This document shows positions 52,765-54,886 of a stretch of DNA of 64,000 nt, one piece after another. The notes under the pieces were generated by a model, which made no database searches, had not been told where the DNA came from, and saw nothing but the letters and a program-made list of their open reading frames with translations. Origin of the DNA: an uncultured Planctomycetia bacterium. Its GTDB lineage: Bacteria; Omnitrophota; Gorgyraeia; Duberdicusellales; Duberdicusellaceae. Positions within the stretch are counted from its first letter, which is position 1; the number at the start of each line of letters is the position of its first letter. Location: NCBI GenBank assembly GCA_964634935.1, contig CAZWJT010000002.1:138643-202642 (forward strand). The letters are read 5' to 3'. The translations under genes were made by a program, and so were the position numbers.

Positions 52765-53904
52765 ATGTCATTTGCAGTAACTCATACGGATTCGCAATCT
52801 TCTGCGCGCTGCGGAGTTTTATGTACTCATCACGGCTCTGTGTCTACTCCCGCTTTTTTTCCGGTAGCGACGGCAGCAACCGTGAAAGGCATTTCTTCGG
52901 AAGATCTTACGACAGCAGAAACACAAGGAATTTTAGCAAATATGTATCATTTATATTTACGTCCGGGCGTAGAAATCATCAGCCGGCTAAAAGGACTACA
53001 CAGATTCATGAATTACCAGAATACGATTATTACCGATAGCGGAGGATATCAGGTTTTTAGTTTATCGTCTTTAAAAAAAGTGACCGACGACGGTGTTGTA
53101 TTTCAATCTCATCTTGATGGCAGTAGCCATTTTTTCTCTCCCGAATCAGTTATACTGCTTCAATCGCAAATTGGTTCTGATGTATTCGTCCAACTTGATG
53201 AATGCATCGAATATCCAGCTTCATATCGTGAAGCCGAAACGGCACTCCAACGGACGATGAATTGGGCGCGTATCACACAAAATACCTATCAGAATATTTT
53301 GTCAGATTTACGATATCAACCGCTTTTACTCGGTGTTGTGCAAGGCGGAACATTTGAATCCCTGCGAAAACAGGCGGTACAGGGTCTGCTTGAGCTTGGT
53401 TTTTCGTATTTTGCGCTTGGCGGTATAAGTGTTGGCGAGCCATTTTCTTTAAGAACCCAACTTGTTTCAGCAATAAAAAGCTATATACCCAAAAATTGCT
53501 TTTCATATCTCATGGGCGTTGGCACTCCGGAAGATATTGTAGAAGCTGTGGGGGCTGGCATGGATCTTTTTGATTGTGTAATTCCAACTCGCATGGGAAG
53601 AACGGGAACCGCATTTACTCGCGATGGAAAAGTTATCATTCGCAATTCGACATACAAAAACGATGAGCGTCCAATAGATCCTGAATGTAAATGCAGTGTT
53701 TGTCAGAAGTATACCAGGGCATATCTCCGCCATCTGGTGAATGCTCAGGAAATGCTTGGAGGAAGACTTCTTTCCTACCATAATATTTATTGGTATAATC
53801 AATTGCTGTCAGATATGCGTCGCGCGATTAACATGAATGAATTTTCCCAGTTTAAAAAATATTTTTTAGATCGCTACCAAAAAAACAATGAAACGAACGT
53901 TTGA
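52765..53904 (+). CDS. tgt: Queuine tRNA-ribosyltransferase
   Basis: …[15 protein letters not shown]…, catalytic Asp region …VFVQLDEC…, Zn site [17 protein letters not shown]. 379 aa. Confidence 0.9.
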
Positions 53905-54886
53905 TATTTTGACTATTTTTCCCGACTTTTTTTCTTCCGTTTTTTCTGCCTCTCTTATTGGAAAAGCCCAAAAACGCAAATTGATTGAAATCAATCCAAT
54001 CGATTTGCGTTCCTACGCGACGGATAAACATCGTACGGTCGATGATATTCCGTATGGCGGCGGGGAAGGTATGGTTCTCAAAATTGAACCTATCGCAGAA
54101 GCACTAACAAGCCTAAAGAAGCATTATCCAAAATCTGAGACACGAACAATACTTTTAAGTCCTCAGGGAATGCCGCTTACCCAAAAACACGTAAGGCAAT
54201 TGTTGAAAATCAAACATATAATCTTGATTTGTGGAAGATATGAGGGGATTGACGAAAGAGTCCGAACGTCCTTAATCGATGAGGAGCTTTCGATTGGAGA
54301 TTACGTTCTTAGCGGGGGCGAGATTGCCGCAATGACCGTTGTTGATGCGGTGGTTCGACTTATACCCGGAGTTGTGGGAGATATACGCTCTACTATCAAT
54401 GAAAGCTTTGAAAAAGATTTGCTCGACTTTCCTCATTATACGAAGCCGCGTATTTTCAAAAATCTCTGTGTTCCGGATGTTCTTTTGAGCGGTAATCATG
54501 AGGCAATAGCACAATGGCGTAAAGAAAAAGCCTTAGAAGCCACCCGTGCAAAACGCCCCGATCTTTTATGCAGTAAATCAGCAGGGCGGTTTTTCATCCA
54601 GGAGCTTGTCAACCAATGCTACCAGATTGCCAGGAATAAAGGGTGGTGGGACAAGCGTCGTAATGACGCAGAACTTATAGCGTTAATGCATTCTGAACTT
54701 TCCGAGGCCCTTGAAGCGCTGCGCCTAAGAAAATCAAAAGAAGAAATTGCCGAGGAGCTTGCCGATTGTTGCATACGCATATTTGATTATTGCGGCAGGA
54801 AAAAAATCCATCTTGAATCCGTACTCTACAAAAAAATCGAGAAAAACAAAGAACGTCCCTACCGCCATGGGAACAAAAAATATTAA
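53888..54886 (+). CDS. trmD: tRNA (guanine37-N1)-methyltransferase TrmD fused to a C-terminal MazG-like NTP pyrophosphohydrolase domain
   Basis: N ~245 aa: [11 protein letters not shown]…[14 protein letters not shown]…[12 protein letters not shown] (SPOUT knot TrmD motifs). C ~85 aa: …[29 protein letters not shown]…[18 protein letters not shown]…, the MazG/HisE-type EExxD helix pair. A single 332-aa ORF. Confidence 0.7.

What the first reader, a model, noticed from the sequence alone, without database searches (positions are those of the whole stretch)
53888..54886. TrmD (m1G37 methyltransferase) fused to a MazG-like NTP pyrophosphohydrolase domain
The TrmD core ends near residue 245. The next ~85 residues carry the MazG/HisE hallmark helix pair (…[10 protein letters not shown]… and …[17 protein letters not shown]…) with the EExxD metal-binding pattern. 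I am not aware that a TrmD-MazG fusion has been described. MazG-like domains hydrolyse (non-canonical) NTPs or (p)ppGpp, so the fusion could couple tRNA m1G37 methylation to nucleotide-pool sanitation or stress signalling.
Basis: partly seen in the sequence, partly recalled or inferred. Interest (0 to 1): 0.6.

Follow-up and report, generated by a model that had tools for sequence, protein, structure and literature searches.

The report
One-off TrmD–MazG-like gene fusion
A tRNA methyltransferase gene (trmD) and the small nucleotide-pyrophosphatase gene after it are joined into one reading frame in this uncultured bacterium, probably by one extra base at their stop/start overlap; the join is real in the DNA but occurs nowhere else, so it looks like a recent accident rather than an evolved two-function enzyme.

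Summary
The 332-aa ORF at 53888..54886 exists. Residues 1-227 are a complete TrmD and residues 237-332 are a single-domain MazG-like all-alpha NTP pyrophosphohydrolase with an intact ExxE...ExxD motif. So the sequence observation holds (TrmD ends at 227, not ~245).

The architecture is a singleton. No other TrmD-MazG protein appeared in searches over about 15 billion proteins, in 85 genomic loci, or in a metagenome pattern scan. The C-terminal domain is up to 83% identical to standalone ~105-aa proteins of Candidatus Omnitrophota. In the closest relatives its conserved partner is the downstream HAD phosphatase, not TrmD.

The junction reads TTA TGC AGT. Removing C54571 gives trmD ...RPDLL-TGA overlapping ATG-AGT-AAA ([14 protein letters not shown]...), an ATGA stop/start overlap like four others in the window. 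The fusion is therefore best explained as a +1 insertion in such an overlap. This signature is only suggestive: 5.4% of 27-nt coding windows in this sequence allow the same edit.

An independent Logan assembly of SRR12133403 has the identical junction, and no gene in the window is broken, so an assembly artefact is unlikely.

Verdict: a real, lineage-specific and probably incidental fusion. The proposed coupling of m1G37 methylation to nucleotide-pool sanitation is unsupported. Low to moderate interest.

The parts
53888..54886 (+). Fused ORF of 332 aa (TrmD::MazG-like), stop codon TAA at 54884-54886
   Evidence: the identical 332-aa product is called on the Logan contig SRR12133403_9508
53888..54568 (+). 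TrmD (tRNA m1G37 methyltransferase) module, residues 1-227, ending with the invariant ...RPDLL
   Evidence: NCBIfam equivalog 310.8 bits vs cutoff 220, residues 5-227; PF01746 E 1.8e-61; all 68 columns that are invariant across the 15 sequences of alignment A2 are retained
54569..54595 (+). 9-residue junction CSKSAGRFF. It corresponds to the variable N-terminal leader of the standalone MazG-like proteins (compare MKKNRLF-I, MSKGIVS-I, MKSKNTFS-I) and contains no in-frame ATG/GTG/TTG
   Evidence: alignment A1; standalone gene starts; low pLDDT for domain residues 1-9
54571..54571 (+). The C whose removal restores trmD ...TTA TGA (stop) overlapping ATG AGT AAA (start of a 105-aa MazG-like ORF). 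It is the inferred +1 insertion that created the fusion
   Evidence: the only one of 56 single-base deletions (54540-54595) that gives both a normal TrmD end and a normally placed MazG start. Chance control 5.4%
54596..54883 (+). MazG-like all-alpha NTP pyrophosphohydrolase domain, residues 237-332. Four helices. Metal-binding ExxE (E270, E273 at 54695-54706) and ExxD (E290, D293 at 54755-54766). Conserved C-terminal [10 protein letters not shown]
   Evidence: (E43, E46, E63, D66 invariant in 57 sequences)
54867..55535 (+). HAD-IA hydrolase gene overlapping the fusion's 3' end by 20 nt. It is the conserved downstream partner of the MazG-like gene in the closest relatives
   Evidence: PF00702; TIGR01509 HAD-SF-IA-v3 38.8 bits vs cutoff 29.4; homologous HAD directly downstream of the MazG-like gene in 13 loci by tblastn and in 22 loci by clustering
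52765..53904 (+). tgt (queuine tRNA-ribosyltransferase), overlapping the trmD start by 17 nt. First gene of the tight tgt-trmD::mazG-HAD string
   Evidence: PF01702 E 4.4e-138; coordinates

Best explanation
trmD and a standalone MazG-like NTP pyrophosphohydrolase gene of about 105 codons once lay next to each other with an ATGA stop/start overlap, in a tightly packed tgt-trmD-mazG-HAD string. Insertion of one C (54571) changed TGA to TGC and put both genes in the same frame. The result is a single 332-aa polypeptide: an intact TrmD, a 9-residue flexible linker (the former MazG leader), and an intact MazG-like four-helix domain. The change is present in the organism's DNA and is not an assembly error. 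It is lineage-specific and most likely an incidental, tolerated fusion. TrmD still methylates G37 of tRNA. The MazG-like domain still hydrolyses some (d)NTP to the monophosphate plus PPi, and probably works with the downstream HAD phosphatase. What is shown: ORF continuity in two assemblies, the identity and intact motifs of both domains, the uniqueness of the architecture, and the conserved MazG-HAD pairing. What is inferred: the +1 insertion route, retained activity of both halves, and the absence of functional coupling.
For: Both domains are intact. The query itself is the only full-coverage hit in the 5.8-billion-sequence protein collection (clusters at 90% identity); all other top TrmDs are 229-274 aa. 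The 120 best tail relatives are all standalone proteins of 95-118 aa, up to 83% identical, and each has its own ATG and an upstream stop. A junction-spanning query against 1.84 billion representatives found no other fusion, and P0242 is only a duplicated TrmD tail. No TrmD lies within 4 kb of the MazG-like gene in 85 loci. The degenerate LSGNH...KGWWD DNA pattern in the metagenome contigs gave only a chance hit. Deleting C54571 is the only single-base deletion that yields TrmD ...RPDLL* plus [14 protein letters not shown]... with an ATGA overlap. Four genuine ATGA overlaps exist in the window. Logan contig SRR12133403_9508 is an independent consensus (7139/7140 identical, 0 gaps, one third-codon-position difference at 54190 that leaves the protein unchanged) with the same junction. 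The window is about 93% coding with long intact ORFs, and lpxK is intact. The MazG-HAD pairing is conserved, and an NT5C-MazG fusion exists elsewhere.
Against: The ATGA-after-one-deletion signature is only suggestive. 5.4% of 27-nt coding windows in this sequence allow it. The demonstrably ancient GT4-GT9 fusion nearby also shows it by chance. The organism is a deep-branching Omnitrophota lineage whose best homologues are only 46-59% identical, so no close relative exists to show the unfused state or to tell whether the fusion is fixed in a clade. I could not inspect the reads. The two assemblies probably use the same reads, so a systematic read-level error is not formally excluded. Fusing two homo-oligomeric modules through a 9-residue linker might impair one of them; this was not tested.
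Confidence: 0.6

Rival explanations
1. Sequencing or consensus error: the organism really has two separate, ATGA-overlapping genes, and the extra C is an artefact.
For: The protein is a singleton with one member sequence. A single-base edit cleanly separates two normal genes. This is a metagenome-derived sequence.
Against: An independent Logan assembly of SRR12133403 has the identical junction while differing at one other base. The site is not in a homopolymer. The rest of the 64-kb window has no split or frameshifted gene: ORFs reach 1031 aa, lpxK is intact, and the two other fused genes are conserved. Random indel errors would hit gene interiors far more often than this roughly 1-nt target.
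Confidence: 0.1
2. Adaptive bifunctional enzyme: the fusion physically couples m1G37 tRNA methylation to nucleotide-pool sanitation or stress signalling and is maintained by selection.
For: Both halves keep every conserved residue. In this DNA the MazG-like domain can only be translated as part of the fusion, because the first in-frame start after the junction is M267, inside helix 2. trmD sits in an unusual tRNA-modification context next to tgt.
Against: There is no recurrence in any database and no trmD-mazG adjacency in 85 other loci. The conserved partner of the MazG-like gene is HAD, and elsewhere the domain is fused to an NT5C nucleotidase, an HTH, or a second copy of itself, never to a tRNA enzyme. 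Intact residues are equally expected for a very recent neutral event.
Confidence: 0.1
3. A real fusion that arose by a different route, for example deletion of the stop codon plus a short spacer, or recombination that placed a start-less mazG-HAD segment behind trmD, rather than a +1 insertion in an ATGA overlap.
For: The ATGA signature has a 5.4% chance rate. Neither trmD nor the mazG-HAD pair is in its usual context, so a rearrangement did occur at some point.
Against: TrmD ends exactly at its invariant DLL with no tail. The 9 linker residues match the length and character of the native MazG leader (3-13 aa...F-I). The restored start MSK... resembles homologues such as P0127 MSKG.... A deletion would have to be in frame and land precisely at both natural termini.
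Confidence: 0.2

Closest known systems
TrmD, bacterial tRNA (guanine37-N1)-methyltransferase (SPOUT class; NCBIfam NF000648 / TIGR00088, Pfam PF01746)
   Same: Residues 1-227 are a full-length TrmD scoring far above the equivalog cutoff. All columns that are invariant among 15 TrmDs are retained, and the module ends at the usual ...RPDLL.
   Different: It carries a 105-residue C-terminal extension not seen on any other TrmD in the databases searched. The gene follows tgt instead of lying in rpsP-rimM-trmD-rplS as in the closest homologue.
Standalone MazG-like 'NTP pyrophosphatase (non-canonical NTP hydrolase)' proteins of Candidatus Omnitrophota, about 100-110 aa (e.g. P0122, P0124, P0127)
   Same: They are 71-83% identical over the whole domain, with the same ExxE/ExxD motif and RPYRHGNK(K/R)Y C-terminus. 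In the closest clade they have the same downstream HAD gene.
   Different: All of them have their own ATG and an upstream stop codon. Here the start codon is missing and the frame is open into trmD.
Single-domain all-alpha NTP pyrophosphohydrolases with solved structures: A. fulgidus pyrophosphatase 4qgp, DCTPP1/RS21-C6 (2oie, 6sqw), S. solfataricus MazG 1vmg, phage MazZ 7ody, integron iMazG 2q73
   Same: The profile matches them at 3e-08 to 1e-03. The predicted four-helix fold superposes on 1vmg (TM 0.82 normalised to the target, rmsd 2.2 A) and on RS21-C6, YpjD and HisE. The metal-binding ExxE...ExxD motif is shared.
   Different: Sequence identity is only 13-24%. Substrate specificity cannot be transferred. 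The conserved KGWWD and RPYRHG motifs are particular to this subfamily.
E. coli-type tandem-domain MazG (TIGR00444 / PRK09562) and HisE (PF01503)
   Same: Same superfamily fold and the same metal-binding motif logic.
   Different: It scores far below both cutoffs: 16.3 bits vs 148.3 for TIGR00444 and 16.9 vs 21.3 for PF01503. It has a single domain. It is not an orthologue, so roles of E. coli MazG such as (p)ppGpp-related stress regulation should not be assumed.
Gene fusions created by loss of a stop codon between adjacent, translationally coupled genes with -4 nt (ATGA) overlaps
   Same: The window has four genuine ATGA overlaps, and the junction collapses to one when a single base is removed. 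Short -4 and -1 nt overlaps with tight translational coupling are common in prokaryotes (PMC10666635, abstract seen).
   Different: Here the event is caught as a singleton with both parent genes otherwise unchanged. No unfused sister genome is available to prove the route.

Membership tests
TrmD (tRNA m1G37 methyltransferase) | Whole-protein score above the curated equivalog cutoff | tested here: met
   NF000648 310.8 bits vs 220; TIGR00088 302.8 vs 195
TrmD (tRNA m1G37 methyltransferase) | Conserved AdoMet-binding / trefoil-knot motifs (GRYEGx[14 protein letters not shown]) and a C-terminal domain ending in ...RxDLL | tested here: met
   C115-G116-R117-Y118-E119-G120, S135/G137-D138-Y139-V140, S142-G143-G144-E145 and D225-L226-L227 fall in the invariant columns of A2
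TrmD (tRNA m1G37 methyltransferase) | m1G37 methyltransferase activity as a homodimer | not testable with these tools
   Requires an enzyme assay. Whether the C-terminal fusion disturbs dimerisation or tRNA binding is unknown.
MazG-like all-alpha NTP pyrophosphohydrolase superfamily (Pfam PF03819 clan) | Pfam gathering threshold | tested here: met
   25.0 bits vs 22 for the tail alone; 21.8 vs 22 (just below) within the full protein. Supported by PHROG 3301 at 2.2e-28 and by the profile against PDB MazG-like chains down to 3e-08.
MazG-like all-alpha NTP pyrophosphohydrolase superfamily (Pfam PF03819 clan) | Metal-binding ExxE ... ExxD motif on helices 2 and 3 | tested here: met
   E270-L-S-E273 and E290-L-A-D293. 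The four acidic residues are invariant in 57 family members.
MazG-like all-alpha NTP pyrophosphohydrolase superfamily (Pfam PF03819 clan) | Four-helix-bundle fold | tested here: met
   AF2 pLDDT 90.6 with four helices. The top Foldseek hits are all HisE, MazG, RS21-C6 or YpjD, although E-values are weak (>= 0.066), as expected for a 100-residue helical domain.
MazG-like all-alpha NTP pyrophosphohydrolase superfamily (Pfam PF03819 clan) | (d)NTP to (d)NMP + PPi activity in a dimer or tetramer | not testable with these tools
   Needs a recombinant protein assay.
Canonical tandem MazG (TIGR00444 / PRK09562) | Two MazG domains, score above the family cutoff | tested here: not met
   16.3 bits vs 148.3; 15.4 vs 208; single domain
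HisE / PRA-PH (PF01503) | Pfam gathering threshold | tested here: not met
   16.9 bits vs 21.3
Evolved bifunctional fusion ('Rosetta stone') linking TrmD and MazG | Recurrence of the fusion, or at least of the gene adjacency, in independent genomes | tested here: not met
   No other fusion. No TrmD within 4 kb of the MazG-like gene in 85 loci. The metagenome pattern scan gave only a chance hit.
Anti-phage defence systems (PADLOC) | Match to any defence protein model | tested here: not met
   No hits for the fusion, the tail or the HAD protein

The most novel reading that the evidence does not exclude
The fusion is fixed and functional in an unsampled Omnitrophota lineage. It would be a genuine bifunctional enzyme in which a house-cleaning (d)NTP pyrophosphatase is tethered to the essential m1G37 methyltransferase. 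That could enforce 1:1 stoichiometry, or let nucleotide status influence tRNA modification. This domain architecture has not been seen in any other protein.
Probability: 0.1. Interest if true: 0.5.

Novelty: new variant of a known kind. Interest (0 to 1): 0.25.

Why it matters
If the fusion is real, as the two assemblies indicate, it is a clean snapshot of how multidomain proteins begin. One inserted base in a 4-nt stop/start overlap converts two translationally coupled genes into one polypeptide, and both parents remain fully recognisable. It also shows that 'Rosetta-stone' inference can mislead: a singleton fusion says little about functional linkage. Here the conserved partner of the MazG-like gene is the HAD phosphatase, which suggests a two-step NTP to NMP to nucleoside clean-up. 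In practice, annotation pipelines would name this protein TrmD and miss a member of a small pyrophosphatase family that is very strongly conserved in Omnitrophota.

Tried and rejected
1. Looked for other fusions four ways: a full-length query, a tail query, a junction-spanning query against 1.84 billion representatives, and a degenerate DNA pattern in the metagenome contigs. None was found. P0242 looked promising but is a duplicated TrmD tail. L086 is a phage terminase containing a chance KGWWD.

2. Checked whether loci whose tblastn matches reached into the TrmD tail of my query (L039, L021 and others) were fusions. They are not: no TrmD was found in any locus.

3. Tried a permissive single-base edit scan on three junctions. 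It was uninformative, because off-frame stops and TTG/GTG codons are frequent in this 42% GC DNA. It did reveal that the conserved GT4-GT9 junction mimics an ATGA collapse by chance, which led to the empirical null of 5.4%.

4. Suspected a broken lpxK in an apparent 947-nt gap. The gene is intact, and my tiling had dropped it.

5. Tried to find the unfused ancestral state on contigs syntenic with the neighbouring GT genes. Synteny stops before tgt, or the contigs end.

6. A mixed TrmD plus MazG alignment for a full-length AF2 model misaligned (A4), so no full-length model was made.

7. The exact look-up of the fusion protein failed, but look-ups of its neighbours recovered the Logan contig.

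8. Rfam found only tRNAs. PADLOC found nothing. No paper mentions SRR12133403.

Full report
**Observation.** The + strand carries an uninterrupted ORF from 53888 to 54886 encoding 332 aa.
- Residues 5-227 match the NCBIfam TrmD equivalog at 310.8 bits (cutoff 220), and Pfam PF01746 at E 1.8e-61.
- In an alignment with 14 TrmDs, every invariant column is retained. The TrmD module ends at the invariant D225-L226-L227, where normal TrmDs stop after 1-25 more residues.
- Scanned alone, the tail passes the Pfam MazG threshold (25.0 vs 22 bits). Within the whole protein it sits just under (21.8). It fails PF01503 HisE (16.9 vs 21.3) and the tandem-MazG NCBIfam models by a wide margin.
- The tail hits PHROG 3301 'pyrophosphatase' at 2.2e-28.
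- A 57-sequence family profile finds the PDB chains 4qgp (pyrophosphatase, 3e-08), DCTPP1/RS21-C6 (2e-07), phage MazZ, SSO3215 and integron iMazG.
- AlphaFold2 gives a four-helix domain with pLDDT 90.6. The meaningful Foldseek hits are all HisE, MazG, RS21-C6 or YpjD structures, though with weak E-values.
- The four acidic residues of ExxE...ExxD (E270, E273, E290, D293) are invariant across the family.
- The sequence-level observation is therefore confirmed.

**Uniqueness.**
- With the full protein as query against the 5.8-billion-sequence collection (clusters at 90% identity), the only full-coverage hit is the protein itself (one member, one 266,689-bp contig). All other top hits are plain TrmDs of 229-274 aa at 59% identity or less.
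- With the tail as query, the 120 best of 2618 hits are all standalone proteins of 95-118 aa. They are up to 83% identical, and many are named from Candidatus Omnitrophota.
- A junction-spanning query (residues 170-332) was read against 1.84 billion representatives of about 15 billion proteins. Any fusion should outrank both single-domain types there, but none appeared. The one two-stretch candidate, P0242, is an internally duplicated TrmD tail.
- In 85 genomic loci carrying the MazG-like gene (80 of them from GTDB species representatives), no TrmD lies within 4 kb.
- A degenerate DNA pattern requiring LSGNH...KGWWD at the right spacing matched the window once, and matched the JGI metagenome contigs only in a phage terminase by chance.
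- No paper in the library links TrmD and MazG.

**The MazG-like gene in its normal setting.**
- Each close relative has its own ATG, a 3-13-residue variable leader before the conserved I-x-x-L-x-x-x-C-Y block, and a stop codon closing the frame just upstream.
- In the clade closest to the window (71-81% identity), a homologous HAD hydrolase follows immediately, exactly as at 54867..55535 here. This holds in 13 loci by tblastn and in 22 by neighbour clustering.
- Other recurrent neighbours are unrelated to tRNA modification.
- Elsewhere the domain is fused behind an NT5C 5'-nucleotidase (P0322), an HTH protein (P0389) or a second copy of itself (P0241).
- The HAD protein only reaches the generic HAD-IA variant 3 threshold.
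- The conserved association is thus pyrophosphatase plus phosphatase. This fits a two-step NTP to NMP to nucleoside clean-up, which is an inference.

**Junction anatomy.**
- The DNA reads GAT CTT TTA TGC AGT AAA TCA GCA GGG CGG TTT TTC ATC ([13 protein letters not shown]).
- There is no in-frame ATG, GTG or TTG until M267, inside helix 2, so the domain can only be made as a fusion.
- Of the 56 possible single-base deletions between 54540 and 54595, only removal of C54571 gives both a normal TrmD (227 aa...RPDLL-TGA) and a normally placed start for the second gene (ATG AGT AAA... = [14 protein letters not shown]..., 105 aa). The two codons then overlap as ATGA.
- The restored N-terminus resembles homologues such as MSKGIVSINEL (P0127) and MKKNRLFINDL (P0124).
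- The window has four genuine ATGA overlaps, at 41476, 49588, 51657 and 61755, and tgt/trmD and mazG/HAD overlap by 17 and 20 nt.
- The most economical history is a +1 insertion in an ATGA overlap.
- This inference is suggestive, not conclusive. 5.4% of 27-nt codon-aligned windows in this sequence's own genes allow the same edit. The nearby GT4-GT9 junction shows it too, although that fusion is ancient and conserved in at least 120 homologues.

**Real or artefact.**
- Looking up the exact Tgt and HAD proteins recovered a Logan contig (SRR12133403_9508, 42.9 kb). It was assembled independently from the raw run and calls the same 332-aa gene.
- That contig matches the window at 7139 of 7140 bases with no gaps. 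The one difference is a C/T third-codon-position change at 54190 that leaves the protein unchanged. The junction is identical.
- The site is not in a homopolymer.
- The rest of the window is about 93% coding, with ORFs up to 1031 aa and no split genes. lpxK, which I briefly suspected, is intact. The two other two-domain ORFs (LpxL+ELM1-like and GT4+GT9) are conserved fusions in relatives.
- A random indel error landing on this one position while sparing about 60 kb of coding sequence is improbable.
- I could not see the reads, and both assemblies probably rest on the same data.

**Organism and limits.**
- Named homologues of the neighbouring GT4-GT9 protein and of the MazG-like protein are almost all Candidatus Omnitrophota, but the best identities are only 46-59% for GT, TrmD and HAD.
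- The genome is therefore a deep branch with no sampled close relative.
- Consequently 'singleton' means the fusion is not a feature of the phylum. Whether it is fixed within its own genus cannot be tested.
- Contigs syntenic with the LPS-core genes upstream either end or diverge before tgt.
- The closest TrmD (P0002) lies in the canonical rpsP-KH-rimM-trmD-rplS operon. The window has one trmD and none of those neighbours.

**Mechanism (best estimate).**
- The fusion protein is an intact TrmD joined by a flexible 9-residue linker (low pLDDT) to an intact MazG-like domain.
- TrmD C-termini naturally tolerate extensions of up to about 25 residues, and MazG-like N-terminal leaders vary. Both halves plausibly stay active.
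- Both parent families act as homo-oligomers (established knowledge, not tested here), so assembly of the fusion is an open question.
- Nothing indicates evolved coupling between m1G37 methylation and nucleotide hydrolysis.
- E. coli MazG-type (p)ppGpp roles should not be transferred, because this is not an orthologue.

**Verdict.** The domain call and the 'undescribed architecture' claim stand, and the functional hypothesis does not. It is a new variant of known kinds: a one-off, probably recent and incidental fusion. Its main value is as an example of fusion birth at a stop/start overlap and as a warning against reading function from singleton fusions. Interest 0.25.

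Noticed in passing
window 49588..51660 and 47681..49591: Two other end-to-start two-domain ORFs sit just upstream: GT4 + GT9 heptosyltransferase (690 aa) and LpxL-type acyltransferase + ELM1-like (636 aa). Both are conserved as fusions in Omnitrophota relatives, within a conserved waaA-lpxK-lpxL/ELM1-GT4/GT9-GT4 LPS-core cluster.
   Followed up: yes
window 52765..54886: trmD follows tgt with a 17-nt overlap, placing two anticodon-loop tRNA-modification genes (Q34 and m1G37) together. It is not in the canonical rpsP-rimM-trmD-rplS operon seen for the closest TrmD homologue. 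I did not check whether tgt-trmD adjacency is typical of Omnitrophota.
   Followed up: partly
window 54596..54883; alignment A1: The ~105-aa MazG-like protein is very strongly conserved within Omnitrophota: 71-83% identity and 49 invariant columns among 18 sequences, including [30 protein letters not shown] and RPYRHG. Neighbouring proteins of the same genomes are only 46-59% identical. This implies strong constraint on a protein of unknown substrate.
   Followed up: partly
proteins P0322, P0389, P0241, P0243: Elsewhere the same MazG-like domain is fused C-terminally to an NT5C 5'-deoxynucleotidase or an HTH/sigma-70 region 4-like protein, or occurs in tandem (P0243 carries an N-terminal extension with no family match). 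The NT5C fusion parallels the MazG-HAD gene pair.
   Followed up: partly
window 57098..58906: A FliG-like protein of 602 aa has FliG_M and FliG_C domains only in the C-terminal 215 residues. They are preceded by a long N-terminal extension with a predicted membrane segment and a glycine-rich low-complexity tract.
   Followed up: no
window 54190: This is the single C/T difference between the window and the independent Logan contig. It is a third-codon-position change inside trmD that leaves the protein unchanged, suggesting strain-level polymorphism in the sample.
   Followed up: yes
window 18698..19142: A cluster of four tRNA genes (Leu-TAG, Cys-GCA, Lys-TTT, Gly-GCC). They are the only Rfam matches in the window.
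   Followed up: no
protein P0242: A 162-aa database protein consisting of an exact internal duplication of a TrmD C-terminal segment, probably an assembly artefact. It mimicked a fusion candidate in the search ranking.
   Followed up: yes
window 55575..56579: A 334-aa ORF directly after the HAD gene has no Pfam match. It has an N-terminal signal-like segment and a C-terminal hydrophobic anchor followed by a basic tail (sortase- or PEP-CTERM-like appearance).
   Followed up: no
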